The notes under the pieces: model-generated
Databases searched by the model: none
Seen by the model: only the letters and a program-made list of their open reading frames with translations
Told to the model about the DNA's origin: nothing
Assembly: GCA_964245565.1 (NCBI GenBank)
Contig: CAXTMY010000005.1
Span: 24,605 to 88,604, forward strand
Length of the DNA stretch: 64,000 nucleotides
Reading direction: 5' to 3'
Origin: an uncultured Acidobacteriaceae bacterium
GTDB lineage: Bacteria > Acidobacteriota > Terriglobia > Terriglobales > Acidobacteriaceae
Shown here: positions 3,231 through 55,473 of the stretch, piece by piece
How the letters are laid out: each line of letters starts with the position of its first letter
Numbering within the stretch: the first letter of the stretch is position 1
Made by a program: the position numbers and the translations under genes

Positions 3231-3288
3231 CGCCGGGAAAAGCCACAGGAGCAGCACGCCGGGCTGCACGCAACAGGAGCATTGCTTA
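3231..3288. repeat. Degenerate half copy of the 110-bp palindromic repeat (family A)
   Basis: CGCCGGGAAAAGCCACAGGAGC...ATTGCTTA aligns with the right half of the 19933-20048 copy; its end overlaps the dapD stop codon. Confidence 0.55.
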
Positions 3289-4170
3289 GGCGCGCAGCAG
3301 TTCTTCGAGCGCGAGGCTCAGCTCAGTCTTGGCGTCGCGGTATTTGACGATGACCGGCGTATACACGCTCAGTCCCCACTCTGCCGCTTTCCCCTTGTGC
3401 ACCGCGCGGGAGCCGGGCACAACGACGGCATTCTCAGGAATCATCAGCGGCGTCTCCGCAGTCGCGCGCAGCACTTCTCCCTGCACCACATCGTAAACGG
3501 GGGTGCCGCGGGTGAGGATGGTACCGGCAGCAAGCACCGCTCTCTTGCGGACGATGGTGCCTTCATACACCCCGCAGTTTCCGCCCACGAGCACATCATC
3601 TTCCAGAATCACAGGGGTTGCGTTGACGGGTTCGAGAACGCCGCCGATCTGCGCGGCAGCGCTCAGGTGGACGCGTTTGCCGACCTGGGCGCAGGAGCCG
3701 ACAAGCGCGTGCGAGTCGACCATGGTGCCGGCGTCGACATACGCGCCGACATTGACGTAGGCAGGCGGCATGCAGACGACCCCGCGCGCAAGGTAAGCGC
3801 CGGCGCGTACCGCTGTGCCGCCGGGAACAATGCGGACCCCGTCCTCCGGCGACCAGTCCCGGGCCGGGTAGGTGTGCTTGTCGATGAACGGAAACAGCCC
3901 GGATTCGAGCGATCCCCACGGCAGCCCGTCGCCCCGCATCGTGCCCAGTCGAAAGCCCAGCAGGATGCCGCGCTTGACCCAGGGATTCACCCGCCAGCCG
4001 AGCGGACTGTCGGCATCCGGCTCTGCGGCCCGGATCATCCCGGCTTCGAGCGCTGCGCGCAGCTCAAGGAACGCTGCGAGCGCAAGCGGATCGTTCCCGG
4101 CGGCCTCGCCCGCGGCAAAGGCAGCTTCAATGCGTTGTTCGAGATCGGAGTGGTTAGGCTCGCTGGCCAT
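3286..4170 (-). CDS. dapD: Tetrahydrodipicolinate N-succinyltransferase
   Basis: [50 protein letters not shown]. Start taken at MASEPN. Confidence 0.95.
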
Positions 4171-4279
4171 CGGGTATTTCCTTTCGAGCGAATATGCGCA
4201 GGCTTTAAAGCAAGGGTTGCCGTCGACACCGTTTCCGCCGACCAACGGGAGGGTTAAGAGAGGCTGGCAGCGTGACACT

Positions 4280-4334
4280 AACGAGAACACGCCACGAAGT
4301 GGCCGCCAGCCGCGCAGGCGGTCTACCGCTCTTG
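4280..4334 (-). repeat. Second dispersed repeat (family B), copy 1
   Basis: Reverse complement CAAGAGC..ACCGCCTGCGCGGCT-GGCGGCCACTTCGTGGCGTGTTCTCGTT matches 8791-8816 plus 8924-8952. Confidence 0.75.
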
Positions 4335-4337
4335 CGC

Positions 4338-5297
4338 CTAATGATTTGCGGGTGCAGCTTCAAGCAGCTGCAGGCTAGCGGCAAGCGCCTGTAGCCGCTC
4401 CCGCGTGGCCGCGGTCACGGGCAGCATCGGCAGCCGGTAGGTTTCGTGAATGCGGCCCATCATGGCGAGCAGCGCCTTCACCGGCCCGGGGCTCGGCTCC
4501 AGAAAGTTCGCGAGCAGCAGGGGGAAATACGTGTGGTTCAGCCGGCGCGCAGTCGCCCAGTCGTTGGCCAGCGCTGCGTGGACCATCGCACTCAGTTCGC
4601 GCGGAATAACATTTGAGGCGACAGAGACGAGCCCGGCGCCCCCGACCCCGAGTACGCCAAGCGCCATGGCGTCGTCGCCCGCGTATACAGAGAATCTGCG
4701 CGGCACAAGCGTCAGGATCTCGGTAATCTGCGGCAGGTTTCCGCTCGACTCCTTGACGGCTACGATGTTCTCACACGCCTCGGCCAACTGAACGATCGTC
4801 GCCGGCTCAAGATTGACCCCGGTGCGGCCCGGAATGTTATAGAGCACCACCGGAAACGGAGCAATGGCGCGCGCAATGGCGGCAAAATGCTCAAACTGCC
4901 CGGCCTGGCTGGGCTTGTTGTAGAAAGGGTTCGCGGTCAGCACGGCGGTGATGCCGGGAATTCCCGCGGCATGCCGCGCCCGCTCCACAGCCTCGCGGGT
5001 GGAGTTGCTGCTGCAACCAGCCCATACCGGCACACGGCCCGCGGCCTGCGCCGCGACAACGCGAAGAACATGGTCCCACTCTTCATGGGAGAGCGTCGGG
5101 GTCTCGCCGGTGGTGCCGCATGCCACCAGCCAGTCGACTCCAGGGGGCCGGGCTCCGGACGGCGCAGGCTCGCCCTCGCGATCCGGTTCGCTGCTGCCGA
5201 TCTGCCAGTCGACCAATGCCCGCAAAGCTGGTTCATCCACCGCGCCGCTGGCGGCGAACGGGGTGACCAGCGCTGTTCCACAACCCACCAGTTCCAT
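4338..5297 (-). CDS. dapA: 4-hydroxy-tetrahydrodipicolinate synthase
   Basis: [35 protein letters not shown] (Schiff-base Lys). Confidence 0.96.
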
Positions 5298-5497
5298 ACC
5301 TGATCGAGTCTATACCGGTCCGCTCTCGGCAGCCTGCCCGCGTCGCCCGGCGCTCCGCGTCGGGCCGGTCGGCGCCATTCCCATTCTGAAATCCAGCAAA
5401 AATCCCGCTGCCGGGCGCTCATGTTGTGTCTGCGTTCGCCGATCAATTCAGTAACGCAGGCTCAGGCCCGCGCGATCAGCGAAAGAAGGGCAAGCGA

Positions 5498-6355
5498 ATG
5501 ATTTCCGTAGTGATCCTGACCAAGAACGAGGAGAAAGATCTGCCCGGATGTCTGGAGTCGGTGCGCTTCTGCGATGACGTGCATGTGTTTGACTCCTGCA
5601 GTACGGACGATACCGTGCAGGTAGCGCACGGAATGGGCGCGCACTTGCACCAGCGGCCATTCGACTCCTACGCCGCGCAGCGAAACGCGGCGCTTGACAC
5701 CATTCCTTTCAAGCATCCATGGGTCTACATCCTCGATGCAGACGAAAGGCTCAACCCCGAGCTGTGGGCCGAAGCGCTCGAGGCGACAGCCTCGGCCCCC
5801 GAGCAGGTGCACGCTTTCCGCATTCGCCGGGACGATCACTTTCTCGGCCACCACCTGCGCCGCGCGCAGATGATGGCGCTCTACACCCGGCTGGTGCGGG
5901 TCGGCTTTGTACGCTACACCCGCGACATCAACGAGTTCCTGGAGGTACAGGGCGAGACGCGGGATCTGCGGACGCGCTTTGACCACTATTCCTTCTCAAA
6001 AGGGCTTGACCGCTGGTTTGAGAAGCACAATCTCTACTCCAGCATGGAGGCGCGTATCGTGGCTGAGCGCAGCTTTACCGGCGACGCCAGTCTCAGGACC
6101 GCGCTCTTTCATCGCGACTTCCACACCCGCCGCCGCGCGCAGAAGGCGATCTTCTACCTGCTGCCCGGCCGTCCCGCGCTCCGGTGGATCTACCTGCTGT
6201 TTGTGCGCGGCGGCGTGCTCGACGGCAAGGCCGGCATGATCTACGCCACACTGCAGGCCATCTACGAGTGGCAGATTGTGCTGAAGACCCGCGAGATGCT
6301 GTCCGATCATAACCGCCTGCACGCGAACACCCTGGCGGGAGCTCGCAGGGCCTGA
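5498..6355 (+). CDS. GT2 family glycosyltransferase
   Basis: ISVVILTKNEE, DSCSTDDT, QRN, ILDADE, HYS. Confidence 0.92.
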   Translation: MISVVILTKNEEKDLPGCLESVRFCDDVHVFDSCSTDDTVQVAHGMGAHLHQRPFDSYAAQRNAALDTIPFKHPWVYILDADERLNPELWAEALEATASAPEQVHAFRIRRDDHFLGHHLRRAQMMALYTRLVRVGFVRYTRDINEFLEVQGETRDLRTRFDHYSFSKGLDRWFEKHNLYSSMEARIVAERSFTGDASLRTALFHRDFHTRRRAQKAIFYLLPGRPALRWIYLLFVRGGVLDGKAGMIYATLQAIYEWQIVLKTREMLSDHNRLHANTLAGARRA

Positions 6356-6421
6356 AAAGGTTTGCGCGCCTCGAACCGGAGGCGCGGGAAGTATTGCCGT
6401 GCACAAACAGTGCGGGCGATT

Positions 6422-6533
6422 GAGCATTTCACAGCAAGTGTGGGCCCATGCACGGAACTCGGCGCGGCTTTTCCGCCAGGAAAAGCCGTATGCCACTCAA
6501 GTCGAGGGGAGCATGGTCACTGTGAAAATGCTC
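6422..6533. repeat. Family A 110-bp palindromic repeat (MITE/REP-like)
   Basis: Termini GAGCATTTCACAG / CTGTGAAAATGCTC; central hairpin GGCTTTTCC-GCCA-GGAAAAGCC. Confidence 0.85.
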
Positions 6534-6623
6534 TGAAACGCAGACTGCATCGCGGACAGTACACTGGCGTTGGCGCCGGGCGCGGCAAACCTGCTCGACC
6601 GGCCGACGAGGATAACTGCCGCG

Positions 6624-7445
6624 ATGCTCTCTGTGCTGATCATCACCCGGAACGAAGAGCAGGACCTGCCGGAGTGCCTGGCGTCTGTTGCCTGGTCCAA
6701 CGATGTGCATGTGCTCGACTCCTTCAGCACGGATCGCACGGTCGAGCTGGCGCGCGCCGCCGGCGCCCAGGTGCATCAGCGCGTGTTCGACAGCTACAGC
6801 AGCCAGCGCAACGCCGGCCTGCATGAGATCGCCTACCGGTACCCGTGGCTGCTGATCCTCGATGCGGACGAACGCGCCAACCCGGCGATGGCGCGGATTC
6901 TTGCAGAGCAGACAGCCGCGGCGCCCGCGGATGTGGATGCTTTTCGCCTGCGGCGGCGCGACCACTTCCTGGGCCGCTGGCTCAGGCATGCGCAAACGAC
7001 ACCGTTCTACATCCGCGTGGTGCGCCTGGGCCGCGCACGGTTTCGGCGCGAGATCAATGAAGTGGTCGAGGTCGACGGCAGGATCGTCGACCTCGAAGAA
7101 CCTTATTTCGACCATTACCCATTTTCAAAAGGCATCACCCACTGGGTCGCGAAGCATAACAGTTACTCGTCCGCCGAGGCGCGCATCGTGGCGGAGAGCG
7201 CATTCGCGGGCGAAGTGTCCTGGAAAAAAGCATTCTTCGCCAAAGACTTCAACGAGAAACACGCCGCGCGCAAGGCTGTGTTCTACAGCCTGCCCGGCCG
7301 TCCGCTCATGCGCTGGGCGTACCTCATGTTCTACCGAAAAGGCGTGCTCGACGGGCGCGCCGGCTTTGTCTATTCCACCTTGCAGGCGGTGTACGAATGG
7401 CTGATCGTCCTGAAAACGCGCGAGCTGCGCGAAGGGAAGCGGTGA
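6624..7445 (+). CDS. GT2 family glycosyltransferase, tandem paralog of 5498-6355
   Basis: LSVLIITRNEE, DSFSTDRT, ILDADE; collinear with the upstream GT2 through to YEWxIVLKTRE. Confidence 0.92.
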   Translation: MLSVLIITRNEEQDLPECLASVAWSNDVHVLDSFSTDRTVELARAAGAQVHQRVFDSYSSQRNAGLHEIAYRYPWLLILDADERANPAMARILAEQTAAAPADVDAFRLRRRDHFLGRWLRHAQTTPFYIRVVRLGRARFRREINEVVEVDGRIVDLEEPYFDHYPFSKGITHWVAKHNSYSSAEARIVAESAFAGEVSWKKAFFAKDFNEKHAARKAVFYSLPGRPLMRWAYLMFYRKGVLDGRAGFVYSTLQAVYEWLIVLKTRELREGKR

Positions 7446-8035: not shown

Positions 8036-8074
8036 CTTCTTTTTCTATTCGATATTCAGTACCGTAGACAGCTT

Positions 8075-8764: not shown

Positions 8765-8790
8765 GTTACACAATCCTTTCTCGACAAGGT

Positions 8791-8952
8791 CAAGAGCCAA
8801 ACCGCCTGCGCGGCTTTCATTTCTCCGATAGGCTGCATGGGCCATCGGATGTTAAGGTGGCCTTTCCGTAAAGAAAGGCCACGCGCAGAATATCTAAGCG
8901 AGGAGACCGTCGGGAGAAATGAACCGGTGGCCCTTCGTGGCGTGTTCTCGTT
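8791..8952 (+). repeat. Family B repeat copy 2, interrupted by a family A element at 8817-8923
   Basis: Flanks match the reverse complement of 4280-4334. The insert has termini TCATTTCTCCGA / TCGGGAGAAATGA and the hairpin GTGGCCTTTCC-GTAA-AGAAAGGCCAC. Confidence 0.78.
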
Positions 8953-8968
8953 TGTCTGCAACGGCCTG

Positions 8969-14852: not shown

Positions 14853-14880
14853 GGGTGACGCAATCTTAACAGCTACCTAT

Positions 14881-14990
14881 AGCATTTTCACTCTTGGTGG
14901 AGAGGGCTGACTTCACGCTCCAGTGGCTTTTCCCGACGGAAAAGCCACGCGCACACTTGCCGGTCTCACCAGGCGTGGAGTGAAAATGCT
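14881..14990. repeat. Family A palindromic repeat
   Basis: Perfect 13-bp terminal inverted repeat AGCATTTTCACTC/GAGTGAAAATGCT; central GTGGCTTTTCC-CGAC-GGAAAAGCCAC. Confidence 0.92.
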
Positions 14991-15000
14991 TTACCCTCCA

Positions 15001-19932: not shown

Positions 19933-20048
19933 TAGAGCATTTTCCCTCCACACGTAGATGGACCAGCACCTATGCGCGTGGCTTTTCCGCCGGGAAAAGC
20001 CACTGGAGCGTGAACTAGGACCTCTACACCAAGAGGGAAAATGCTCTA
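19933..20048. repeat. Family A palindromic repeat (best-preserved copy)
   Basis: Perfect 16-bp terminal inverted repeat TAGAGCATTTTCCCTC/GAGGGAAAATGCTCTA; central GTGGCTTTTCC-GCCG-GGAAAAGCCAC; supplies the TAG stop of the adjacent oxidoreductase. Confidence 0.93.
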
Positions 20049-22979
20049 GCTGCCGAGCCCGCGCGCCAGCACCTCGGCCACGTGCAGCGCCTCGCGGCCC
20101 GTGCCCTGCATAATCTGTTCCCGGCAGGAGAACCCGCCCGACACCACGAAGCTCTCCTTCGCTGTTGCGCGCACCGCCGGAAGCAGAACCCGCTCGCCCA
20201 GCGCCTGCGATACCTCGTACTTCTCCCGCTCAAACCCGAACGGGCCGGCCATGCCGCAGCACCCCGTATCTGGCACAGTCACGGTGCCGCATGCCTGCTC
20301 CAGAAACTCCCGCTCGGCCTTCAGCTTGCCCAGCGCCTTGTGGTGGCAGTGCCCATGCAGCAGCGCCCCGGCTTCGGTCACGCGGCCGGGGCGAAACGCC
20401 GGCGCAAACTCTTTCAGAGCATCGGCGAACAGTCGCGTCTGCGCGGCCAGCCTGCGTGCGCGCGCATCGTCAGGGAAAAAGTTCAGCAGCTCGTCCTGAA
20501 ACACGCTCGCGCAGCTCGGCTCGAGAAACACGAACGGCAGCCCCGCATCGATCTGCGGCGCGAAGCGGTCCAGGATGCCGCGAAGGTACCCGCGCGCCTC
20601 GCTCAGCATGCCGAAGTCGTACAGCGGGCGGCCGCAGCAGGCATGCTGCTTCGGCGTCCACGGCTCCAGCCCCGCGTGCCGCAGCACCTTTTCCGCCGCC
20701 GTAAGCGCGGACGGATGGAAGTAGTTATTCCAGGTGTCGGGCCACAGCACCACCGCTGCGCCGCGGCTTTTGCGATCCCGCGGCAGCCCCCGGGTATAAG
20801 ATCGCGCGGCAAACTGCGGCAGCGTACGCTGGGGCGCAAGATCCAGCAGCCTGCCGGCGAGCGAACGCGCCCCCGGCAGTTTCAGCGACTGGTTCGCCAG
20901 CCTCGGCGCCGCCGACGCCAGCCTCGCCCATTTGTCCAACCGGCCAAAGGCATAGTCGCGCAGCGGATGCGTGTGGGTTTCATAGTAGTGCGCCAGGAAC
21001 TCGGCCTTGTACGTGGCCATATCCACGTTGACCGGGCACTCCGTCTTGCACGCTTTGCAGCTCAGGCACAGGTCCAGCGCTTCCTTTACCGCCTCGTTCG
21101 CAAAGCCGTCCCGCAAGGTATCTTTCTGCATCAGCTCCCACAGCAGGTGCGCGCGGCCCCGCGTGGAGTGCTTCTCCTCGCGCGTGGCCATGTAGCTGGG
21201 ACACATCGTGCCGGCGTCGTCCTTGCGGCACGCGCCCACGCCCACGCAGCGCAGCGTGGCTTCGCCGAACGAGCCCCGGTCCTCGGGGAACGCGAACCAG
21301 GTCTCCGGCTTCGCTGATTTGTAACCGTCACCGAGACGAATGTTTTCAATCGGCGAGTAGACCCGGTCCGGGCTTACCAGCTTGCCCGGGTTCATGCGGT
21401 TCTCCGGATCCCACAGGCGCTTGAACTCGCGGAAAGCCTCCATGATGCGCGGCCCGAACATCTTCGGCAGCAGCTCGGCCCGGGACTGTCCATCGCCATG
21501 CTCGCCCGAAAGCGAACCGCCCAGCGCCAGCACGATGTCCGCCGCCTGGTCGATGAACGCGCGGTACTTGCGCAGACCCTCCGCGCTTTCCATGTCGAAG
21601 TTGAACCGCATGTGAATGCAGCCCTGGCCGAAATGTCCATACATCGGCGTGTGATAGTCGTAGCGCTCCATCAGCGCCTGGAGCTGCCGCAGGTAGCTGC
21701 CCAGCTTTTCCGGCGGGACCGCCGCGTCTTCCCAACCCTCCCAGCGATGCGGCTCGCCGGGCACAAAAACAGTAGCACCGAGCGCCTGTTCCCGGACCTT
21801 CCAGACCTGCGCCGCCTGTTCGCCCTGGTAGCGGCAGGCATCATTAATGCGGCCCGTGCTTTTTGCCTCTGCTACAAAGCGTTGCGCCTGCTCCTCGGCG
21901 TCCTCCGCCGTGTCCGCTCCGAACTCGACCAGCAGATAGCCGCCGCAATCTTTCGGCAGCAGCTCGAGCTCGGCGAGCGAAAGCCGCTTGCGCCGCATGA
22001 GCTCGATCAGCATTTCGTCGAAGCCTTCAAGACCGATCGGCTTCCACTCAAGAATCCACGGCACCTCGTCCGCCGCGGCAAACGTATCCTCGAAGCCGAG
22101 CACGACCAGCTGCCGATGTTGCGGGCTCGGCACCAGGCGCAGCGTTGCCGCCAGAACGGTAACGCAGGTGCTCTCCGAGCCGACCAGCGCGCGCGCCACG
22201 TTGCAGCCGTTCTCCGGCAGCAGCTGGTCGAGGTTGTAGCCTGAAACTCTGCGCGGAATCTTCGGAAAGCGCGCGCGGATCTCGTCCGCATATGCGTCGC
22301 GCAGCCGCTTCAGCCCAGCGTAAATCTCTCCGCGCCGTCCGCCCGCGCGAATCACCCGTTCGAGTTCCTCGTCGCTTGTCGGTCCCACCTGCAGGCGCGT
22401 GCCGTCGTACAGCAGAACATCGAGCGCCTCGATGTTGTCCGAGGTGAGTCCGCCGATCAGCCCATGTGTGCCACAGCTGTTGTTACCGATCATGCCGCCG
22501 AGGGTGCAGCGCGAGTGGGTCGCCGGGTCGGGCGCGAAAGTCAGCTTATGCTGCTCGGCCGCTTCGCGCACCCGGTCCAGCACCACGCCCGGCTCCACCA
22601 CCGCGCGCCGCGCTTCACCGTCCACTGAAATTATCCGCCGCATGTATTTCGAGTAGTCGAAGACAACGGCTTCATTGCAGGTTTGCCCGGCGAGGCTTGT
22701 GCCGCCGCCGCGCGCGAGCACCGGCGCGCCGTGTTGGCGGCACACCTGCATGGCCGCGATCACATCGTCCGCATCCCGCGGAACGACCAGGCCGATCGGC
22801 ACCTGCCGGTAGTTCGAGGCGTCGGTCGCGTACAGCGCGCGCGCCCCGTCATCGAAGCGGACTTCGCCCTGCACTGCGCGCGCCAGGGCCTCGCGCAGGA
22901 CATCGCGCCGCGAAGGCACAAAGCCTGCGGGCGAATGGCTGCCGTTGCTTTGCAGTATCGGAAAGTTGGGGGAGTTCAC
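20046..22979 (-). CDS. FAD-binding and Fe-S-binding oxidoreductase (YdiJ/GlcD-GlcF fusion type)
   Basis: RGGGTSLAGQ, GGMIGNNSCG, SGEHGDG, MNPGK, CVGVGAC, CLSCKAC..ECP, CCG motifs. Confidence 0.92.
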   Translation of the reverse strand: MNSPNFPILQSNGSHSPAGFVPSRRDVLREALARAVQGEVRFDDGARALYATDASNYRQVPIGLVVPRDADDVIAAMQVCRQHGAPVLARGGGTSLAGQTCNEAVVFDYSKYMRRIISVDGEARRAVVEPGVVLDRVREAAEQHKLTFAPDPATHSRCTLGGMIGNNSCGTHGLIGGLTSDNIEALDVLLYDGTRLQVGPTSDEELERVIRAGGRRGEIYAGLKRLRDAYADEIRARFPKIPRRVSGYNLDQLLPENGCNVARALVGSESTCVTVLAATLRLVPSPQHRQLVVLGFEDTFAAADEVPWILEWKPIGLEGFDEMLIELMRRKRLSLAELELLPKDCGGYLLVEFGADTAEDAEEQAQRFVAEAKSTGRINDACRYQGEQAAQVWKVREQALGATVFVPGEPHRWEGWEDAAVPPEKLGSYLRQLQALMERYDYHTPMYGHFGQGCIHMRFNFDMESAEGLRKYRAFIDQAADIVLALGGSLSGEHGDGQSRAELLPKMFGPRIMEAFREFKRLWDPENRMNPGKLVSPDRVYSPIENIRLGDGYKSAKPETWFAFPEDRGSFGEATLRCVGVGACRKDDAGTMCPSYMATREEKHSTRGRAHLLWELMQKDTLRDGFANEAVKEALDLCLSCKACKTECPVNVDMATYKAEFLAHYYETHTHPLRDYAFGRLDKWARLASAAPRLANQSLKLPGARSLAGRLLDLAPQRTLPQFAARSYTRGLPRDRKSRGAAVVLWPDTWNNYFHPSALTAAEKVLRHAGLEPWTPKQHACCGRPLYDFGMLSEARGYLRGILDRFAPQIDAGLPFVFLEPSCASVFQDELLNFFPDDARARRLAAQTRLFADALKEFAPAFRPGRVTEAGALLHGHCHHKALGKLKAEREFLEQACGTVTVPDTGCCGMAGPFGFEREKYEVSQALGERVLLPAVRATAKESFVVSGGFSCREQIMQGTGREALHVAEVLARGLGS

Positions 22980-31824: not shown

Positions 31825-31937
31825 TAGAGCATTGGCGGTCTTGGGGTAGAGTTCGGGCTTCTCGCTCCAGCGGCTCTTCCCGGTGGAAAGCAACGCGCAC
31901 ACCGCCTGTCTCTCGAGGTGTTGCGTGACAATGCATC
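31825..31937. repeat. Family A repeat, degenerate
   Basis: TAGAGCATTG...CGCTCCAGCGGCTCTTCC..GGAAAGCAACGCGCACA...ACAATGCA, collinear with the 14881 copy. Confidence 0.75.
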
Positions 31938-31964
31938 GGCCCGTGGCTGCCTGTGGATGTTCAA

Positions 31965-32061
31965 GTACCGGGAGACCTGCTGCGCACGCACTGGCCCGTT
32001 GCCGTTGCTTCCTTCCGGACCTGGCGGGGTTGGCGGGATTGCGCCGCGCAGGGCCCGGCAC
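31965..32061 (-). ncRNA. ffs: Signal recognition particle RNA (4.5S, small bacterial SRP)
   Basis: The minus strand contains the domain IV signature CCGCCAGGTCCGGAAGGAAGCAACGG. 5' GTGCCGGG pairs with 3' CCCGGTAC; length about 97 nt. Confidence 0.93.
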
Positions 32062-32076: not shown

Positions 32077-32136
32077 TCGTGCGAGCGGATGCGGAAAGTC
32101 ACACATCGCACAGGTCCGCGGCCTCCTATCGCGCAA

Positions 32137-32210
32137 CGCGTGGCTTTCCGCCGGATGAAGCCACGGGGTGCGTCTGCGCTGACCCGCACGCCTACCGAAG
32201 AATTGCTCTA
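32137..32210. repeat. Family A repeat, degenerate right part
   Basis: CGCGTGGCTTTCCGCCGGATGAAGCCAC...GAATTGCTCTA; the terminal TA begins the TAAAAT box before rimO. Confidence 0.65.
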
Positions 32211-32220
32211 AAATACTATA

Positions 32221-34028: not shown

Positions 34029-34578
34029 CGGTGAAACCACAGAGCAGTTGCGGGAGCCGGGGCCAGCGCCGGTAAGGGCTCCGTTGCGGAGCCTGATCCG
34101 CACGCCCTGGGCGTGGGCGGTCTCTACGTTTCTGGGCGCAGGCTTTCTCAAGCCCGGCCCTGGCACCTGGGCCTCGGTTGCGGCGGTACTGCTGTGGCTG
34201 CTGTTCGCCGGCCTCGCTTCTCCCACGCCGCCTGCGCTGCGCGCCGTGACCCTGCTCGCTGCGCTGGTCGCCATTGTGGCCGGCATTCCGGCAGCCACCG
34301 TGGTCGAGTTCGAATCAGACCGTGAAGATCCGGGCCATGTGGTCATCGACGAGGTCGCCGGGCAGTGGATCGCCCTGCTCGCCTTCTGCGGCTATGGGCA
34401 CCAGGACTGGGCACACGCTCTGCTGGCGCTGCTGCTTTTCCGCTTGTTCGACATCCTGAAGCCGCCGCCCGTTCGCCAGCTGGAGCGCCTCCACGCAGGC
34501 GTCGGCATCCTGATGGACGATGCCGCAGCCGGGCTGTATGCGCTGATCGTTGGCGCCATTATCGGGCACTGGTGGTAA
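34021..34578 (+). CDS. pgpA: Phosphatidylglycerophosphatase A
   Basis: PGPGTWAS, DPGHVVIDEVAGQ, LFRLFDILKP, GILMDD. Confidence 0.93.
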   Translation: MSDGETTEQLREPGPAPVRAPLRSLIRTPWAWAVSTFLGAGFLKPGPGTWASVAAVLLWLLFAGLASPTPPALRAVTLLAALVAIVAGIPAATVVEFESDREDPGHVVIDEVAGQWIALLAFCGYGHQDWAHALLALLLFRLFDILKPPPVRQLERLHAGVGILMDDAAAGLYALIVGAIIGHWW

Positions 34579-34654
34579 AGCATCTTCACCCGGATCGAGA
34601 GAAGGACCGTGGCGTGCGCGTGGCTTCTCCGTCTGCCCAGGGGTGAAAAACTTC
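34576..34654. repeat. Family A repeat with an internal deletion
   Basis: TAAAGCATCTTCACCC...GCGCGTGGCTTCTCC...GGGTGAAAA; begins at the pgpA stop. Confidence 0.6.
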
Positions 34655-39338: not shown

Positions 39339-39453
39339 TAAGGCATACTCACTTGTGGGTGTAGAGCGCTGGCTTTACGCTCCAGTGGCTTTTCCCTACG
39401 GAAAAGTCCGCGCACATTTGCCGGTCTCTATGCGTTGAGTGAAAATGCCCTAG
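39339..39453. repeat. Family A repeat
   Basis: TAAGGCATACTCACT...CGCTCCAGTGGCTTTTCC-CTAC-GGAAAAGT...AGTGAAAATGCCCTAG; its CTAG carries the Uma2 stop. Confidence 0.88.
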
Positions 39454-39959
39454 TCTCGCAACTCGCGAATCGCTGCCCAGTCGAGCAGACATGCGCTGCC
39501 CGGGCACGCAGGCTCCTCGTTTGGGGTCAGCACACCGTCCCGATAGCGGTAGATCGTATCCGTCTCCGGATTGATGACGACGATCGTCTGCACACGCATC
39601 GTCTGGTAATCCTTGAGCTTTTTGAGCATGCGCGGCACCCGGTCTTCCGGTGACAGCACTTCAAAGACCGCTATGGGAGGGTAGGTCAGAATCTGCTCGA
39701 CAGGCTGCGCTCGATCGAAGACAGTGATGTCCGGAACACGGTAGCGTGCAGGCGCGACTTTTACGCGGTATTCAGCCAGAACGCGGACGTTCCACTCGCG
39801 CTCGCGAGCGGAGAACCAAAGTAAGAGCGCTTTCTGCCAGGATGCGTGATCGAACTGCCCCATCGGCCGCTCCTCAATTTCACCGTCGACATACTCGGCA
39901 TCAGGCTCATAGTCGCTGCGAAGGTACTCTTCGATCGGAACAAACGCTGTAGTGGCCAT
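39450..39959 (-). CDS. Uma2/DUF820 family endonuclease
   Basis: EEYL, EYVDGEIEER, RVPDITV, PIAVFEVLSPED; paralog of 1084-1605. Confidence 0.9.
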   Translation of the reverse strand: MATTAFVPIEEYLRSDYEPDAEYVDGEIEERPMGQFDHASWQKALLLWFSAREREWNVRVLAEYRVKVAPARYRVPDITVFDRAQPVEQILTYPPIAVFEVLSPEDRVPRMLKKLKDYQTMRVQTIVVINPETDTIYRYRDGVLTPNEEPACPGSACLLDWAAIRELRD

Positions 39960-39985: not shown

Positions 39986-40004
39986 CTAGAGCATTTTCCC
40001 TGTA
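39986..40004. repeat. Isolated family A terminus
   Basis: CTAGAGCATTTTCCCT, matching the end of the 19933-20048 copy. Confidence 0.75.
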
Positions 40005-40069
40005 ACTGTGAGCCGGAGTCGCAGGCTGATTCAGTCTGGCGAACCCATTCACCTTAAACTGAAGGAACA

Positions 40070-41026
40070 ATGATCCAGACCCTCTTCGGCTCGTTAGACC
40101 AACCGGAAAAGCGCAGTGTGTTCGACAGGATGCGCGAAGCTGTCTCGCGCACCCGCGATTCTCTTTCCGACAAAATTGGCGATGTCGTCGCGCTTACGCG
40201 CGAGGTAGACGAAGCCGCGCTCGAGGAGCTGGAGGGTGTTCTGCTGGCCTCTGACCTTGGCATGCCGACGACGACGGTGGTGATTGGAGCTTTGCGCGAA
40301 CGGGCGCTCCGCCAGGGCATTCGCGACGGCGCCGAGCTTAAGACCCTGCTGCGCGCCGAGCTGCTCACGATCCTCAACCGGGAAAACGCGCTGCCGCCGC
40401 GCCGCATCACGCCTCCTGAGGTTGTGTTCCTGGTAGGCGTGAACGGCACCGGCAAGACGACGACCAGCGGCAAGCTGGCCGCGTGGCACCGCCGGGCGGG
40501 CAAAACCGTCCTGCTGTGCGCGGCCGACACCTTCCGCGCCGCCGCGATTGAGCAGCTGGAGATCTGGGGCCAGCGCGCCGGCGTCGAGATCATCAAAACC
40601 CGCCAGGGCGGCGACCCCTCTGCCGTGCTGTTTGACGCGGTAACAGCCGCCAACGCCCGCCGCACCGACCTTCTGCTGGTAGATACCGCAGGCCGGCTGC
40701 ATACAAAGACCGGCCTGATGGCTGAGCTTGAAAAGATGCGCCGCACCGCCCAGCGCATCATCTGGGATGCTCCACACGAAGTCCTGCTGGTACTCGACGC
40801 CACCACCGGTCAAAACGGGCTGCAGCAGGCGCGGCTCTTTACCGAATCCGCGGGAGTGACCGGCATCGTTCTCTCCAAGCTTGACGGAACCGCAAAAGGT
40901 GGGATAGTTGTAGCCATCGCCCATGAACTGCATTTGCCGGTGCGGTTTGTGGGGACGGGCGAGAAGATGGACGATTTGCTCGCCTTTAACAGCGAGGCCT
41001 TTGTCGACTCCCTGCTGGGAGATTAG
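40070..41026 (+). CDS. ftsY: SRP receptor FtsY
   Basis: [42 protein letters not shown]. Confidence 0.97.
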
Positions 41027-41127
41027 AGCGTTTGCCCGTAGGGGATACGGTCGGTCTTTCTACCTTGTGGCTTTCTGCCAAGGCCACTATCGCGGTCGCA
41101 CTGCACACGTTTTTGGGGGGAGATGCC
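41024..41127. repeat. Family A repeat, degenerate
   Basis: TAGAGCGTTTGCCC...GTGGCTTTC..AAGGCCAC...GGGGAGATGCC; the first TAG is the ftsY stop. Confidence 0.65.
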
Positions 41128-41134
41128 GAGCCGC

Positions 41135-42418
41135 ATGTCTGAGCCATCCACTCCAAACCAGCTCAGCCAAGCCGTTGTCGAGTCCATGCCGGACCGCCAG
41201 GAAGACGCGCGCTGGATGCGCCATGCCTTGCAGCTGGCGCAGGCCTCTATCGGCCTGGCCTCGCCGAACCCGCGCGTCGGCTGTGTTCTGGTAAGAAACG
41301 GCGTCGTGATCGGGCGCGCCGCGCACCACTATGAGGCGAAGGACCACGCCGAGGTGGTGGCGCTCAGGGAGGCAGGCCCGAAGGCGCGCGGCGCCACTGC
41401 CTATGTCACGCTCGAGCCCTGCTCCCACACCGGGCGCACGCCGCCGTGTGCTGCTGCGCTGATCCAGGCAGGGATCAGTCGTGTCGTCGCTGCCACGGGC
41501 GACCCCAACCCGCTGGTGAACGGCCACGGTCTTGCCATGCTGCGCGAAGCCGGCATCGCCACGACAGTCGGTGTGCTCACCGAGCAGGCGCGTGCGCTCA
41601 ATGACGGCTTCGCCCGCTGGATTCGCCGCAAGCTGCCGTTCGTCACGCTCAAGGCGGGCGTCTCGCTCGACGGGCGCATCGCTCCCTCCCGGGCTGAAAA
41701 AACTCCCGGCAGCGTGGCCTACCTCACCGGCGCCCGCTCGCTGCTGGCAGTGCAAAAGCTCCGCCAGGCCAGCGATGCCGTACTCACCGGGATCGGCACT
41801 GTTCTCGAAGACAACCCTCTGCTGACGGACCGCAGCGGCGGTTCGCGCAGGCGTCCCCTGCTGCGTGTCGTGCTCGACTCCCAACTGCGGCTGCCGATGG
41901 ACAGCAGCCTCGTCCAGTCAGCCGCCGGTGATCTGCTCGTCATCACCTGTGATGCGGATGAGGACTCGTCTGCTGAGCCGGCCCCGGACACGCGGGTCGG
42001 CACGGCCTCCGCTGCGCTGATGTGTGCGCCTGTCAATGCAGATGCGCAGATTTTGCGCGAGCGCCGCCGTGCGCTGGAGACGGCGGGTGTCGCGGTTCGC
42101 GCGGTTCCACGCAATGCCGCGGGGAAGCTTGACCTGCATGCCGTGCTGCACCTGCTGGCCGAGAGTTACGGAGTGCTGAATCTGCTGGCCGAAGGAGGCT
42201 CGCAGCTGAACCGGGCGCTGCTCGAGGGCAGTAACGGCGTCCCGGTAGCCGACAAGCTCTGCCTCTTCTACGCGCCGATGTTCCTTGGCCAGGCGGGTGT
42301 GCCGCTGCTTGCGGGGGACCTTTCGCTGCCCGCCGAAATTCACCGTTCCACCCTGTCGGAGTGCGGCTCCGATTTCCGGCTCGACGCGTATCTGCGCGAT
42401 CCCTGGCGGGACCAGTAG
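41135..42418 (+). CDS. ribD: Bifunctional riboflavin deaminase/reductase
   Basis: PNPRVGC, HAEV, TLEPCSH.GRTPPC, SLDGRIA, GIGTVLEDNP, EGGS. Confidence 0.95.
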   Translation: MSEPSTPNQLSQAVVESMPDRQEDARWMRHALQLAQASIGLASPNPRVGCVLVRNGVVIGRAAHHYEAKDHAEVVALREAGPKARGATAYVTLEPCSHTGRTPPCAAALIQAGISRVVAATGDPNPLVNGHGLAMLREAGIATTVGVLTEQARALNDGFARWIRRKLPFVTLKAGVSLDGRIAPSRAEKTPGSVAYLTGARSLLAVQKLRQASDAVLTGIGTVLEDNPLLTDRSGGSRRRPLLRVVLDSQLRLPMDSSLVQSAAGDLLVITCDADEDSSAEPAPDTRVGTASAALMCAPVNADAQILRERRRALETAGVAVRAVPRNAAGKLDLHAVLHLLAESYGVLNLLAEGGSQLNRALLEGSNGVPVADKLCLFYAPMFLGQAGVPLLAGDLSLPAEIHRSTLSECGSDFRLDAYLRDPWRDQ

Positions 42419-50866: not shown

Positions 50867-51429
50867 GCGAGGAAAAGCTCGCCTGGGCGGCGATCGCCAA
50901 ACGCATCCGCGTGCCGCTCGGTTTTGTGTTTGCCGCGGTTTTTCTGCTGCTCGCGCGGCCCACGTATCGCTCGCTCGCGCTCAGCCTGCTGCTGGTGCTG
51001 CCCGGGCTTGCGCTGCGCGGCTACGCCGCCGGCTACGTGAAGAAGAACGCCGAGCTTACCGTGACGGGTCCCTACGCCTGGACGCGCAACCCGCTTTATC
51101 TCGGCTCCATGCTGATCGCCTTCGGCTTTGCCGCGGGCGCCCGCTCCATTCTCCTGGTCGTTCTGCTCGCCGCACTGTTCGCCGTCATCTATATCCCGGT
51201 GATCCGTGGTGAAGAGCAGTATCTCCGCGTGCACTTCGCCGGCTTCGATGCGTACAGCCGCCGTGTGCCGCGGCTCGTGCCCTGGCGCGCGCCCATGCGC
51301 TCAGCCGGTGAGCGCGGACGCTTTGCCGCGGCACTCTACCGCAAACACCGCGAGTACAATGCCAGCATGGGTGTCGCGGCGCTTTATCTTGCGCTCCTCC
51401 TGCGCCTGGTGCTGGTGCATGGCCGGTAA
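50863..51429 (+). CDS. ICMT/PEMT family integral-membrane methyltransferase
   Basis: LTVTGPYAWTRNPLYLG, EEQYL, F..Y..RVPR; hydrophobic segments. Confidence 0.87.
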   Translation: MSEEKLAWAAIAKRIRVPLGFVFAAVFLLLARPTYRSLALSLLLVLPGLALRGYAAGYVKKNAELTVTGPYAWTRNPLYLGSMLIAFGFAAGARSILLVVLLAALFAVIYIPVIRGEEQYLRVHFAGFDAYSRRVPRLVPWRAPMRSAGERGRFAAALYRKHREYNASMGVAALYLALLLRLVLVHGR

Positions 51430-52294
51430 ATTTCTCAAAGGACCAGCAGACAGGATGCCTACCTCGTCCCGCAGCCCTGGCGCCCCGTTCCGCAAGGAAA
51501 GAGGCGCATGGTTTACCCCGGCAGTCCTGCTGCTGCTCTGCCTTGCGCCGGTTTCGGCGCAAACCCCTGCCACGAGCACGCATTCTGCCACACCGCCGGT
51601 TACATTTCCGCCGCCGCTCCCAGGCTGGAGCTTTCCCACGCGGCAGACCCTTACCTACGCTGTCGACTGGCGCGTTTTTCCAGCCGGGACTGCTACGGTT
51701 CACCTTGAGTCCGATGGAAGCCTCGAACGCATCACCGTCACCGGCGACTCGCAGGGCGCGATCAACCTGCTGTTCCACGTCAGCGACCGCTTCCAGTCCA
51801 GCTTCGACCGCACCACCGGCTGCTCGCAGAGCTTCACGCGGCAGATTATGGAGGGGCACCGCCAGGTAAACTCCGATGAGCACGTCGACGATGCCCGGCA
51901 CGTCGCCTCCTACAACGAGCAGAACCTTGTGTCGCACATCAACCTGCACCAGACCGTGGCCGTGCCGTCCTGCGTCACCGATATGCTTTCCGGCATCTAT
52001 TACTCGGGCTCGCAGCCGCTTGAACCCGGCACCGTTTTTCACCTGCCCGTCATCAGCGGCGACCACGTCAGCAACGTGACGATGCGGGTGGAAGCCCGCG
52101 AGCTGGTCCGCACCCCCACCACGAGCTACCACACCGTGCGCGTCGAGCCCACGGCTGACTCCGGGACCATTCGCAACCGCGGCAAGGTCTGGATCTGGTA
52201 TTCCGATGACAGCCGCCACATCCCGGTGCAGATGCGCGCGCGCCTGTTCTGGGGTACGCTGACGTTCCGGCTTACCGGGATCGACACCAAGTAG
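51419..52294 (+). CDS. DUF3108-like exported protein
   Basis: Signal-like segment; LTYAVDW, GTA, DMLSGIY, IWYSDD.RHIPVQM...GTLTFRL; start uncertain. Confidence 0.75.
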   Translation: MAGKFLKGPADRMPTSSRSPGAPFRKERGAWFTPAVLLLLCLAPVSAQTPATSTHSATPPVTFPPPLPGWSFPTRQTLTYAVDWRVFPAGTATVHLESDGSLERITVTGDSQGAINLLFHVSDRFQSSFDRTTGCSQSFTRQIMEGHRQVNSDEHVDDARHVASYNEQNLVSHINLHQTVAVPSCVTDMLSGIYYSGSQPLEPGTVFHLPVISGDHVSNVTMRVEARELVRTPTTSYHTVRVEPTADSGTIRNRGKVWIWYSDDSRHIPVQMRARLFWGTLTFRLTGIDTK

Positions 52295-52298
52295 CGCC

Positions 52299-52583
52299 TT
52301 ACTGAATGCGGAACCGCTCCCGCATCGCCCGCTGAATCCGCGGCCGCCACAGCAGGTTGTACGTCGCCTCTTTGCCGGGAAACATGCGCAGCACCGCGTC
52401 GCGGGTGTTGGCAACGGCCTGCGCTGCTTCGTCGACCGTCATGGAGCGGTCCTGCGCGATGCTCGCGAGCAGCAACTGCATCATGGCCTGCATGCGGCGA
52501 AGCTTGCGGCTTTCCTGCTGCTCTTCTTCCCGCGGTCTTTTCGCTGCGTCGATCGCGCCTGCTCCGGATACTCCTGTGCTCAT
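52299..52583 (-). CDS. Hypothetical protein
   Basis: 94-aa helical-looking ORF with a GGAGA RBS; MFPGKEATYNLLWRPR. Confidence 0.7.
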   Translation of the reverse strand: MSTGVSGAGAIDAAKRPREEEQQESRKLRRMQAMMQLLLASIAQDRSMTVDEAAQAVANTRDAVLRMFPGKEATYNLLWRPRIQRAMRERFRIQ

Positions 52584-52731
52584 GCCGTGGTCTCCCGATG
52601 GATTGAAGGCCTGCCGTGACTTTGCCCGGGTGCGGCAATTACGCTCATCCTACGCCTGCGACCGGCCCCGGCGCAGGCTTGTTTCCCCGGGGGGTGGCTT
52701 CGTCACCTGGTCTCTCTGATCTTTCGATGCT

Positions 52732-55473
52732 CTATGGATGCCCGATCGGACTGCCGGTCCAGGCACCTCCCGTCAGATGCTTGCCATCCAGCAGAAAGTC
52801 AGTTTCCCCGGTCAGGTCTGTGCGAAAGGTCAGCACTCCGGCGCTTTGCAGCTTGTCGAGCGTTGCGGGTTTTGGATGGCCGTAGAAATTGCGACGTCCG
52901 CAGGAAATGACCGCCTCCTGCGGCGTAAGCGCGGCGAGAAATGCCGGGGTCGAGGAGGATAGACTCCCGTGATGGCCGACCTTGAGCAGGTCGGCATGCG
53001 CAAGCCCGGCGCTCACCATCGCCGACTCCGCCAGCGCCTGGGCGTCGCCTTCAAGCAGCGCCGAGCTTCCGCGGTAGCTCAGCCGCAGCACCAGCGAGTC
53101 GTTATTGCCCGGCTCCGCTTTCGGACGGTAGGACCGCGAAGGCCAGAGCGCCTCTACCTGCGTCCACTGGCCCAGGCGCCACGTGTCGCCCTGCCGGTGC
53201 GCCACGACCGGAATATGCTGCGTTGCCGCCTGTGCGAGCAGCGCGGCGTAGTGGGCCGAGCCGGGATTGTTGCCGACCAGCAGCACCCGCGGCCGGAAAT
53301 TCGCCAGTACCGCGGCCATTCCGCCGATATGGTCCTCATGCGCGTGCGTGATCGCCACCGCGTCGAGCCGCCGGATGCCCCGCGCCCACAATGCCGGCGA
53401 GACGACCTCTTCGCCGATATCGAAGCGGCTGTCCGGCGCCTGCCCCACCAGGCCTCCGGCATCGACCAGCATCGTGCGCCCATCCGGGGTGACAACGAGG
53501 ATGGCATCGCCCTGGCCGACGTCGATGGCTGAAATCTCCAGCACGCCCGGCCGGTGTTGGAGCGCCTGGGGGGCGATGACCAGCGTCGCCGCCGCCGCGA
53601 GCAGTCCGCAGGTGGCGGCGAGCGCCCAGCGGCTCCGGCAGCGCACGACGCGTACCGCCAAAGCGACCACCAACACCCACGCGGCGATGTGCAGCGCCTC
53701 CGGCGCGGGCAGGCGGTAGTCGCCCAGCGGCAAACGGGCAAAGCCGTTCACAATCGCCGAGACCACGTGCAGCACTGCTGCCGTAAGCGCGGCCGGAAGG
53801 ATCGCCGCGGCAGGGAAGACCAGCAACGTGGCGAAGCACAGCATGGCCGCCGGCAGCAGCACGCCGAGCAGCGGAATGATGACAAAGTTGACCGGCAGCC
53901 CCAGAACCGTGACGCGGTGGAAGTACATCGCCATGGGCAGCGCCATCACCAACTCCACCACGGCGGAGACCAGCAGAAGCTCGAGCGCGCGCATCGCGAA
54001 GACAACGGCTTGCGGCATCCAGCGATGCGCGACGCGGCGGCCGACTATCGGCTCCAGGTGCTCGGCCAGCAGCCGCAGCATGACCCGCATTTCCGCTACC
54101 TTCGGGAGCAGGGAAGCGTCGATCGCGACCAGCCACAATTGCTTTAAGCCGTGCAGATAGGGCGCAAAGGTGCGCTCGCCGACCGGTACGGCGATGCCTG
54201 CGATCGCGACCACGGTGAGCAGCGTCATCTGCAGGCTGGAGCCGGCGAGCGCCCGCGGGCTTACCGCCATCAGCAGCAGCGACGCCAGCCCCAGCGCCTG
54301 GAGCCCATGCCGTTCGCGGTACAGCAGCCGCCCGACCAAGTAAAGCGTCACCATCCAGAACGAGCGCTGCACCGGCTGGCCGTAGCCGGTAAATACCGCG
54401 TACGCGAGTGACAGCGCAATGGTTACCGCTGTGCCGGCGACGCGCGGCAGCCTGAGCCAACGCGCCGCCAGCAGGACGACGGACGAGAAAATCGCCAGGT
54501 GCAGGCCGGAGACCACCAGCAGGTGGAACGACCCGGTGCGCTCGAAGCCTACCCGGGTGCCGGTCTGCAGGTAGCTGCGGTCGCCCGTCAGCATCGCCGT
54601 CAGCATGCTTGCATCATTCGAGGAGAGAGCAAAGAAACCCGGCAGCCAGTCCGGTCTTGGCATCTGCGCCAGCGCCATGATGCGCTGGCTGGCCACGGTC
54701 TGCAAACGGTGCAGTCGGCAGTCGAACCCCGGCGCAGCCTCGCCGAGCAGCCGAACCTTCGCCGCGTCGACTGCGCCAAGCGCGCCTACGCCCTGCTCGT
54801 GCAGGTACTCCGTCGCGTCCCATACGCCGGGGTCGCCGTAGCGGCTTTCCGCGCGCGGGGCCAGCGTGACGGCGAGCCGGGTGCCGCACCCGAGCAGCGG
54901 CAGCGCGGTGCCTGGGCCGGCATAGATCGTCAGACGGAGTCCCCCACCCAGCGGCTGCATTTGCTCGCCCTCGCCTGCAACGCCGGCAAGCCGCAGGTCG
55001 ATCCTCTGCTCCAGCTCACTGCGCTTGGCGCGCTGAAAAAACGCCGTATACGTGGAAGCCTGCACTGCACCCGCCCGCATTACCGTGCCGGTAAAGGTGC
55101 GGGTTGCTCCATCGGCGGCAAGCAGCGCGAGCGGCTGCTGCGGATCGACAGGCCGCTGCACCTCACCGGCAAGGCAGCCCAGCACCAGGAACAGCCCGGC
55201 CAGCGCAACCGGCACCGCGCGCGGAGCATGCCACGCCGAGAGCAGCAGCAGGATGCCGAGGGGCAACACGCCTGCGAGCAGCCAGCAGGGCGTGACCCAG
55301 TGGAAGCTCGCAGCGGCAATGCCCAGCGCGAACGCGCATGCCGGCAACAGCGCGGGCGCATTGACGAGGCGGATGTCCGCCGAGGCCGGGCGGACGCGGT
55401 GCCGAAGGGCCGCACCCGTCGGCGCGGGAGCGGCAGAACGATATGGGACCAGGACTGTCGCAGCCATCGGCAC
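52732..55473 (-). CDS. comEC: ComEC/Rec2 DNA-uptake channel
   Basis: HLLVVSGLH, IDVGQGD, THAHEDHIGG, NNDSLV, KVGHHGS, YGHP. Confidence 0.94.
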   Translation of the reverse strand: MPMAATVLVPYRSAAPAPTGAALRHRVRPASADIRLVNAPALLPACAFALGIAAASFHWVTPCWLLAGVLPLGILLLLSAWHAPRAVPVALAGLFLVLGCLAGEVQRPVDPQQPLALLAADGATRTFTGTVMRAGAVQASTYTAFFQRAKRSELEQRIDLRLAGVAGEGEQMQPLGGGLRLTIYAGPGTALPLLGCGTRLAVTLAPRAESRYGDPGVWDATEYLHEQGVGALGAVDAAKVRLLGEAAPGFDCRLHRLQTVASQRIMALAQMPRPDWLPGFFALSSNDASMLTAMLTGDRSYLQTGTRVGFERTGSFHLLVVSGLHLAIFSSVVLLAARWLRLPRVAGTAVTIALSLAYAVFTGYGQPVQRSFWMVTLYLVGRLLYRERHGLQALGLASLLLMAVSPRALAGSSLQMTLLTVVAIAGIAVPVGERTFAPYLHGLKQLWLVAIDASLLPKVAEMRVMLRLLAEHLEPIVGRRVAHRWMPQAVVFAMRALELLLVSAVVELVMALPMAMYFHRVTVLGLPVNFVIIPLLGVLLPAAMLCFATLLVFPAAAILPAALTAAVLHVVSAIVNGFARLPLGDYRLPAPEALHIAAWVLVVALAVRVVRCRSRWALAATCGLLAAAATLVIAPQALQHRPGVLEISAIDVGQGDAILVVTPDGRTMLVDAGGLVGQAPDSRFDIGEEVVSPALWARGIRRLDAVAITHAHEDHIGGMAAVLANFRPRVLLVGNNPGSAHYAALLAQAATQHIPVVAHRQGDTWRLGQWTQVEALWPSRSYRPKAEPGNNDSLVLRLSYRGSSALLEGDAQALAESAMVSAGLAHADLLKVGHHGSLSSSTPAFLAALTPQEAVISCGRRNFYGHPKPATLDKLQSAGVLTFRTDLTGETDFLLDGKHLTGGAWTGSPIGHP

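What the first reader, a model, noticed from the sequence alone, without database searches (positions are those of the whole stretch)
3231..52734. Dispersed ~110-bp double-palindromic element whose arms co-vary between copies
Seen in sequence: about a dozen intergenic copies or stubs (3231, 6422, 8817, 14881, 19933, 31825, 32137, 34576, 39339, 39986, 41024, 43251, 52726). They share long terminal inverted repeats (consensus TAGAGCATTTTC...GAAAATGCTCTA) and a central hairpin GTGGCTTTTCC-N4-GGAAAAGCCAC. The arms differ between copies yet stay complementary within a copy: CACTC/GAGTG (14881), CCCTC/GAGGG (19933), CACAG/CTGTG (6422), GGCAT/ATGCC instead of AGCAT/ATGCT (39339), GGCCTTTC/GAAAGGCC (8857). 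Established knowledge: TA/CTAG-flanked GAG-ended termini resemble IS5/IS630-derived MITEs and the intergenic mosaic repeats of alphaproteobacteria. Inference: co-variation suggests that structure rather than sequence is maintained, as in attC or REP sites, or that the arms are corrected against each other. No cognate transposase lies in the window.
Basis: partly seen in the sequence, partly recalled or inferred. Interest (0 to 1): 0.8.

Follow-up and report, generated by a model that had tools for sequence, protein, structure and literature searches.

The report
IS630-type MITE with conserved central hairpin
This is a real 116-base gene-less repeat, present in over 160 copies in this genome, whose ends match an IS630 jumping gene that likely moves it; its ends come in many matched variants, but a paired hairpin always sits at its centre, where it likely helps the element spread.

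Summary
Confirmed: a 116-bp, centre-symmetric element with 162 profile hits in this genome (0 in the reversed control) and copies across the genus. Its ends match the 27-bp terminal repeats of an IS630 clade of Acidobacteriaceae base by base. Both sit in Y-TA-R sites, and the element likely keeps about 45 bp of an IS end. Orthologous sites in relatives are mostly empty. So it is a MITE of the RUP/ERIC kind; no intact partner was found in this incomplete genome.

The arm co-variation is real but lies mostly between subfamilies, largely at the positions where the two ends of each IS co-vary. Within the main subfamily, decay is mostly uncompensated. Copies often sit on stop codons (68 of 153) or on likely -10 boxes (18 of 26 ends).

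Less ordinary: an 11-bp central hairpin, absent from 38 ISs, keeps its position and pairing through double changes across about 17 end types. It also occurs in a second shell nested inside a REP-like repeat (window 8816). One copy is a perfect palindrome, likely from arm-to-arm copying. The scan noted similar hairpin-core MITEs on other DNA before.

The parts
3211..3288 (-). decayed half copy (hairpin remnant and one end) at a stop codon
   Evidence: profile hit E=0.002; sequence
6420..6535 (-). full copy, minor subfamily (ends TTTTCACAG type)
   Evidence: E=1.6e-12; no element at the orthologous site in G008, G004, G016
8799..8815 (-). right half of a second, REP-like repeat (X) that hosts the 8816 copy
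   Evidence: about 60 uninterrupted X copies in G000
8816..8923 (-). type II copy: same hairpin core, ends begin TTC and lack TAGAG, nested in repeat X
   Evidence: uninterrupted X at the orthologous site in G008, G048, G016
8924..8953 (-). left half of repeat X
14878..14993 (+). full copy, main subfamily, between a DUF1440 gene and nrdR; terminal repeat 1-16 and 101-116, hairpin at 14923-14948
   Evidence: E=2e-31; genes named by Pfam; 1 of 23 relatives with both genes has an element here, of another subfamily at another TA
19933..20048 (-). full copy, main subfamily; its terminal CTA is the stop codon of the gene at 20046-22979
   Evidence: E=3.4e-32; gene calls
31825..31940 (+). decayed full copy next to the SRP RNA gene (31963-32060)
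   Evidence: E=2e-16; Rfam RF00169; site without element in G004, G048, G016
32124..32210 (-). half copy; its terminal TA begins a TANNNT box 11 bp before a gene start
34576..34654 (-). internally deleted copy starting on a stop codon
   Evidence: E=0.025; G004 has the stop codon without the element
39339..39452 (+). full copy, main subfamily; right CTA is the stop codon of the gene at 39450-39959
   Evidence: E=5.2e-21; gap 128 bp here vs 13 bp with a single TA in G016
39987..40013 (+). solo 27-bp IS630-type end
   Evidence: 27.6 bits on the IS-end matrix
41024..41140 (+). heavily decayed copy starting on a stop codon; right end uncertain
   Evidence: 12.6 bits; hairpin remnant; absent in G004, G048
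   Evidence: inverted match to 6506-6535; E=0.028

Best explanation
The element is a gene-less 116-bp miniature transposon (MITE) whose ends match those of an Acidobacteriaceae IS630 clade, so it is likely moved in trans by those DDE transposases into TA sites, and its central hairpin likely helps copies to be moved or kept. Shown: 27-bp ends with the IS base pattern; Y-TA-R flanks; a remnant of the IS left-end motif; mostly empty orthologous sites; landing on stop codons and TANNNT boxes. Inferred: positions 8-16 are read by the transposase DNA-binding part and differ between IS variants. Only copies whose two ends both fit one variant would be amplified, so each subfamily has matched arms, and arm-to-arm copying may speed the switch. 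A TAG-starting end rebuilds a stop codon and a duplicated TA keeps a -10 box, so such insertions would be tolerated. Inferred and weakest (about 0.45): the hairpin extrudes or bends the DNA at the exact centre so that two ends only about 60 bp apart can be paired.
For: IS630 elements (Pfam DDE_3) in same-genus genomes begin with the same end sequence. 38 of 44 IS loci examined gave both ends, 1016-1063 bp apart. MITE base frequencies at positions 1-13 track the IS (position 11: C 0.31/T 0.67 vs 0.29/0.66). MITE ends score median 19.9 and 11.4 bits on an IS-only matrix vs background 99th percentile 1.9. The base before TA is a pyrimidine in 87% and 79% of MITE ends vs 91% for IS. The two ends of one IS co-vary at 10-14 and 25-27; MITE arms co-vary at 8, 11-16 and, more weakly, 25-27. 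IS end type tracks OrfA distance (Mantel r=0.58). One MITE end carries the IS left-end motif at 33-46 in the two largest subfamilies (shuffle p=0.007, 0.015). Co-variation is between subfamilies; at IS-invariant positions 3-6, 3 double changes vs 2.2-2.6 expected. 68 of 153 copies abut a stop codon vs 19% of available YTAR sites; 18 of 26 ends facing a gene start read TANNNT vs 251 of 789 background. The hairpin is the slowest-changing part (8.8% vs 20-24% in spacers), with 12 double changes vs 6.3 expected. An eight-copy subfamily has four double changes in the stem at the same position. Other IS630-ended elements of similar length carry different palindromes.
Against: No intact transposase of this clade in G000 (80% complete): only end-less fragments. 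None reached E<1e-12 in the near-complete, copy-rich G004 and G008. No IS left end with the main subfamily's exact 16 bases in 401 family genomes, only 6 of them from the genus. The best IS matches to 17 MITE end types average 7.5 of 9 bases, with no chance control. No strain-level filled/empty pair was found. MITE arms are more symmetric than IS ends (positions 8-16 identical in 15 of 21 metagenome elements, some redundant, vs 6 of 38 IS). Over positions 1-7 and 9, double changes are in slight excess (10 vs 5-6; p=0.02-0.04). Block 21-29, nearly invariant in IS at 21, 23 and 24, is no better kept than spacers in copies, which hints at selection after insertion. No IS contains the hairpin (0 of 38), so its origin is open. 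Type II copies keep matched arms without the TAGAG end.
Confidence: 0.8

Rival explanations
1. The element is an IS630-type MITE, but its two perfect stems are kept after insertion because the folded RNA serves the host, as a 3' stabiliser or RNase site as reported for ERIC and Correia elements.
For: 44% of copies abut stop codons. The whole element folds at -66 to -72 kcal/mol. Both perfect stems decay at about half the spacer rate. The hairpin decays a little more between divergent genes (25 of 217 vs 59 of 845). Precedent in PMC2229807.
Against: The G-U over A-C excess on the transcribed strand (34 vs 17) is also seen in unpaired spacers (45 vs 28), so it fits mutation bias. Copies occur in both orientations (33 vs 53). 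No terminator pattern at 14878. Most orthologous sites are empty in relatives.
Confidence: 0.3
2. Arm matching arises mainly by arm-to-arm copying (template switching in a folded single strand), not by a transposase filter.
For: One copy (L345) is a perfect palindrome with 72-bp arms that includes flanking DNA. Modest excess of double changes in the hairpin within one subfamily (p=0.01). MITE ends are more symmetric than IS ends. Type II arms still co-vary.
Against: Only 1 of 201 copies shows copied spacers, and an assembly artefact was not excluded. Single changes outnumber double ones 78 to 6 in the terminal repeat and 72 to 12 in the hairpin of the main subfamily. No excess at positions 3-6.
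Confidence: 0.2
3. The element is a REP/REPIN- or attC-like single-strand substrate moved by an HUH (RAYT), Ssn or tyrosine enzyme that reads the central hairpin; the IS-like ends are passengers.
For: Hairpin fixed in position across unrelated spacers. Type II lies inside a REP-like repeat. IS630-ended elements in G051-G053 carry REP-like palindromes (likeness judged by eye against the SRM motif in PMC11893778 and from recall).
Against: No Y1 hit in G000. No hairpin beside 9 Y1 and 2 GIY-YIG loci of the genus. The broken GIY-YIG gene of G000 is flanked by a different repeat. 21 of 29 exact hairpins in metagenomes have both IS-type ends at the expected distance. Tyrosine recombinases were not searched.
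Confidence: 0.08

Closest known systems
RUP of Streptococcus pneumoniae (107 bp, proposed partner IS630-Spn1; PMC2229807 parts 1-2, passages of PMC3049150)
   Same: About 110 bp, over 100 intergenic copies, TA ends, terminal repeats like those of an IS630 element, stem-loop fold.
   Different: Here many end variants co-exist on one chassis, the element is GC-rich, and a central hairpin is held at a fixed place. No intact partner IS was found in this genome.
ERIC/IRU (MITEEc1, listed as IS630 in PMC11602168) and Correia/NEMIS (PMC2229807)
   Same: TA-ended MITEs near gene ends that fold into long stem-loops; Correia elements carry outward promoters, and one form has an internal IHF site.
   Different: Sequence homology was not tested. 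No RNA effect is shown here. The internal motif here is a paired hairpin rather than a known protein site.
Nezha MITE of cyanobacteria (passages of PMC3184786)
   Same: MITE whose matching IS is found only in another species.
   Different: Nezha is recently mobile; these copies are old (nearest neighbour median 78% identical).
Alphaproteobacterial CIR / Bru-RS / RIME repeats (PMC2229807; table in PMC2267715)
   Same: About 103-110 bp palindromic intergenic repeats with TA ends. That their ends resemble TAGAGC is recalled, not tested.
   Different: CIRs are described as two side-by-side arms with a linker; this element is nested (outer stem closing an inner hairpin). No plasmid match. The primary CIR paper could not be read.

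Membership tests
MITE (non-autonomous DNA transposon) | short, non-coding, multi-copy, intergenic | tested here: met
   116 bp; 162 hits; 3 of 162 inside called genes
MITE (non-autonomous DNA transposon) | terminal inverted repeats | tested here: met
   16-bp stem plus a second block at 21-29
MITE (non-autonomous DNA transposon) | filled and empty orthologous sites | tested here: met
   species level only:
IS630-family MITE | ends like those of an autonomous IS630 | tested here: met
   38 IS with both ends; position-wise match; best profile hits of the MITE model lie at IS termini
IS630-family MITE | TA target duplication | tested here: inconclusive
   TA at both ends in 20, one end in 22, neither in 12 of 54 old copies; same Y-TA-R context as the IS; a single TA at the diverged empty site of 39339; no strain-level pair
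IS630-family MITE | mobilised in trans by the transposase | not testable with these tools
   needs a transposition assay
REP/REPIN with RAYT | Y1 HUH gene flanked by the repeat | tested here: not met
Ssn-related motif (SRM/NTS) | small GIY-YIG gene flanked by the repeat | tested here: not met
   the GIY-YIG remnant in G000 has other repeats and no element on its contig; none at the small GIY-YIG of G004
attC / integron cassette site | cassette arrays with an integron integrase; extrahelical bases | not tested
   no integrase search; copies are dispersed and genes between close copies look like ordinary chromosomal genes by eye
Known Rfam RNA | match at gathering score | tested here: not met
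   only the SRP RNA in the window

The most novel reading that the evidence does not exclude
The central hairpin is a portable cis-acting module that lets ~11-turn DNA elements be synapsed and spread by many different IS630 transposases. One chassis keeps the hairpin at its exact centre, swaps its matched ends (partly by arm-to-arm copying) as transposase specificity changes, and can even move into a REP-like shell. This would be a general design rule for very short bacterial MITEs, and a natural table of transposase-end pairs.
Probability: 0.3. Interest if true: 0.7.

Novelty: new variant of a known kind. Interest (0 to 1): 0.42.

Why it matters
As a class it is ordinary: a RUP/ERIC-type MITE. 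It is still useful in three ways. It pairs about 17 MITE end types with a diverse IS630 clade, which makes end recognition directly testable. It shows a MITE family that sits on stop codons and likely -10 boxes, so it may have replaced the upstream promoter region of a number of genes. And it offers a clean test of whether an internal hairpin is needed for very short elements to move, a question that the papers I read leave open.

Tried and rejected
Rfam: no family for the element. RAYT and Ssn partners: not found beside copies. Long elements bounded by these ends in G000: none with convincing ends; the matrix was mis-anchored and was replaced. Sequencing runs: one DNA holder at a small share and no RNA holder listed; laying it showed no joint that skips a copy, and cover was patchy, so this is no evidence either way. 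Viral contigs and plasmids: no match. G-U excess as a sign of RNA selection: rejected because spacers show it too. Rare-variant test of selection after insertion (0.033 vs 0.034): not used, because it saturates. A 2-bp target duplication for type II: seen in single G000 copies (AG twice, TC once) but only 19 of 43 across the genus, against about 15 by my hand calculation from the dinucleotide counts, so not claimed. Parent IS for type II: none among 58 junctions or 26 DDE_3 loci. A -35 box supplied by the end: only weak matches. Literature: seven searches listed no paper whose title or abstract start describes this family; most subscription papers, ISfinder and the MITE files of PMC11602168 were not seen and may hold it.
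Full report
1. Observation. The listed places were read directly. A profile iterated from four window copies finds 162 places in G000 (3.37 Mb, 63% GC, 80% complete), 132 at E<1e-5, and none in the reversed genome. 98 are near full length, with a mode of 116 bp. 39987 is a true solo end, 41024 is a decayed copy, and 43251 and 52726 are too short to call. A further subfamily of about eight copies was missed by the profile, so 162 is a lower bound. Rfam knows only the SRP RNA in the window.

2. Anatomy. The element is symmetric about its centre: a 16-bp terminal stem, four unpaired bases, a second looser block at 21-29, free spacers, and an 11-bp stem at 46-56/61-71 with a 4-base loop. 106 aligned copies fall into 19 spacer clusters, the largest holding 53. 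Copies are old (nearest neighbour median 78%, best 97%).

3. Range. Blastn finds it in 10 of 18 same-genus genomes and 0 of 12 from another family of the order. Exact cores number 57, 29, 6, 54 and 10 in five chosen relatives, with 0 in controls. Outside the genus, 6 of 296 family genomes have a single exact core; two of these lie in coding DNA by chance and two or three look like decayed copies. In metagenomes, 21 of 29 exact cores have IS-type ends at the expected distance, with very different spacers and ten end types; some loci are redundant. Nothing was found in viral contigs or plasmids. Record titles for the related IS point to Acidobacteriaceae.

4. The likely mobiliser. DDE_3 loci in a same-genus genome begin with the element's end sequence. 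A scan returned 80 loci of this IS630 clade. I examined 44, roughly one per variant, and 38 gave both ends, 1016-1063 bp apart. Pfam gives DDE_3 for OrfB and a sub-threshold HTH_32 for OrfA. The MITE follows the IS at positions 1-13, scores far above background on an IS-only matrix, and shares the Y-TA-R context. The MITE profile hits the IS mainly at its termini. One MITE end keeps the conserved IS left-end motif in the two largest subfamilies but not clearly in most small ones. Against this: G000 holds only end-less fragments; copy-rich G004 and G008 have no strong DDE_3 hit; and no IS left end with the main subfamily's exact 16 bases was found in 401 family genomes, of which only 6 are from the genus. 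A partner found only in other species has a precedent in Nezha (passages of PMC3184786).

5. Empty sites and targets. At the DUF1440-nrdR gap, 23 of 24 relatives' loci had both genes; 22 lack an element and one has another subfamily, reversed, at another TA. For other window copies, syntenic sites in G004, G008, G016 and G048 lack it; at 39339 the gap is 13 vs 128 bp with one TA left. In the reverse test, 15 of 42 relatives' loci had a syntenic pair in G000 and 3 of these had an element nearby. No strain-level pair was obtained. With my own simple gene caller, 68 of 153 intergenic copies start on a stop codon, against 8.6% of available TA and 19% of YTAR sites; a few may have created the stop. 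Of 26 intact ends facing a gene start, 18 read TANNNT, against 251 of 789 background sites. Reading these as -10 boxes is inference.

6. Co-variation. It is real. In the IS, the left and right ends of one element co-vary at 10-14 and 25-27, and end type tracks OrfA distance (r=0.58, which shared ancestry alone could give). In the MITE, arms co-vary at 8 and 11-16. Outside the main subfamily there are 92 double changes vs 38 expected; inside it, 6 vs 3 with 78 single changes. At invariant positions 3-6 there is no excess, though positions 1-7 and 9 together show a small one. So arm matching is mostly a subfamily property, as a transposase filter predicts. Two facts go beyond it: MITE arms match better than IS ends, and one copy of 201 is a perfect palindrome with 72-bp arms. 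Template switching in folded DNA is known from my recall, not from a call.

7. The hairpin. It is absent from all 38 IS. It is the least diverged part of the main subfamily (8.8% vs 19.5-24%) and has 12 double changes vs 6.3 expected; unpaired control pairs give a ratio of 1.04. Across all copies it is 38 vs 20, partly a subfamily effect. The missed subfamily has four double changes in the stem at the same position. In type II, the two variable stem positions match between arms in 39 of 39 scored copies. Other elements with these IS ends, about 105-135 bp long in four other genomes, carry different palindromes. Pairing and position thus seem to matter more than sequence. The data do not separate a need during transposition from selection after insertion. 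The wobble bias is explained by mutation. I commit to a role in bringing the two close ends together. This rests on the exact centring, the length near 11 helical turns, and the general stiffness of short DNA (established knowledge, recalled). It is untested.

8. Type II (window 8816). About 109-110 bp, with the same core by profile (43 of 43 hit), but the ends begin TTC and the element sits at one fixed point of an abundant REP-like repeat. The right junction pattern occurs in 19 of 37 genus genomes, a few by chance. Of 58 junctions examined, 43 have matched ends and 39 of those have the left half of the repeat; flanking dinucleotides agree in only 19. It most likely spreads as a composite with its host repeat; no mobiliser was found.

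9. Known families. It works like RUP, ERIC and Correia elements and meets the MITE tests that could be run. TA duplication is only indirectly shown. Papers seen: PMC2229807 parts 1-2 of 3; passages of PMC11893778, PMC11602168, PMC1273637, PMC2267715, PMC3049150 and PMC3184786; no supplements. The CIR paper was not available. Seven searches listed no description of this family. Earlier notes of this scan describe similar hairpin-core IS630 MITEs on other DNA; no look-alike sequence was on record. These notes are unchecked and were read after my main tests.

10. Verdict. A real and likely undescribed family of a known class, with an unusual fixed hairpin on exchangeable ends. Interest 0.42; new variant of a known kind.

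Noticed in passing
window 8799-8815 and 8924-8953; about 60 places in G000: A second abundant REP-like repeat (X), often in inverted pairs around hairpins, with a co-varying small stem; present across the genus. Its mobiliser is unknown.
   Followed up: partly
G000:C86:5330-5720: Broken small GIY-YIG (Ssn-like) gene flanked by an inverted pair of a third repeat type.
   Followed up: partly
L232-L234 (G051), L235 (G053), L236 (G052), L237-L238 (G049): Elements of about 105-135 bp with TAGAGC ends that carry REP- or SRM-like palindromes as cargo; about 15 in G051.
   Followed up: partly
L345 (G004:C1:1109870-1110013): Perfect 144-bp palindrome: one arm of a type II copy and its flank mirror the other.
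   Followed up: partly
G000:C4:12188, C85:3389, C43:1150, C20:20410 and others: Subfamily of about 117 bp with other ends and a hairpin with four double changes, missed by the profile.
   Followed up: partly
L190 (G008) and G000:C55:18831: The same TA carries a full main-subfamily copy in G008 and a solo end of another subfamily in G000: repeated insertion or replacement.
   Followed up: no
G000:C77:11397, C17:56867, C47:11829, C1:21259: Mini-derivatives of about 45-60 bp that keep both ends and lack most or all of the hairpin; each is different, none amplified.
   Followed up: no
G000:C124:753-1267: Three elements of different end types within 520 bp, next to another palindromic repeat and a small antitoxin/toxin-like gene pair judged by eye.
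   Followed up: no
window 31963-32060: SRP RNA gene flanked on both sides by element copies.
   Followed up: no
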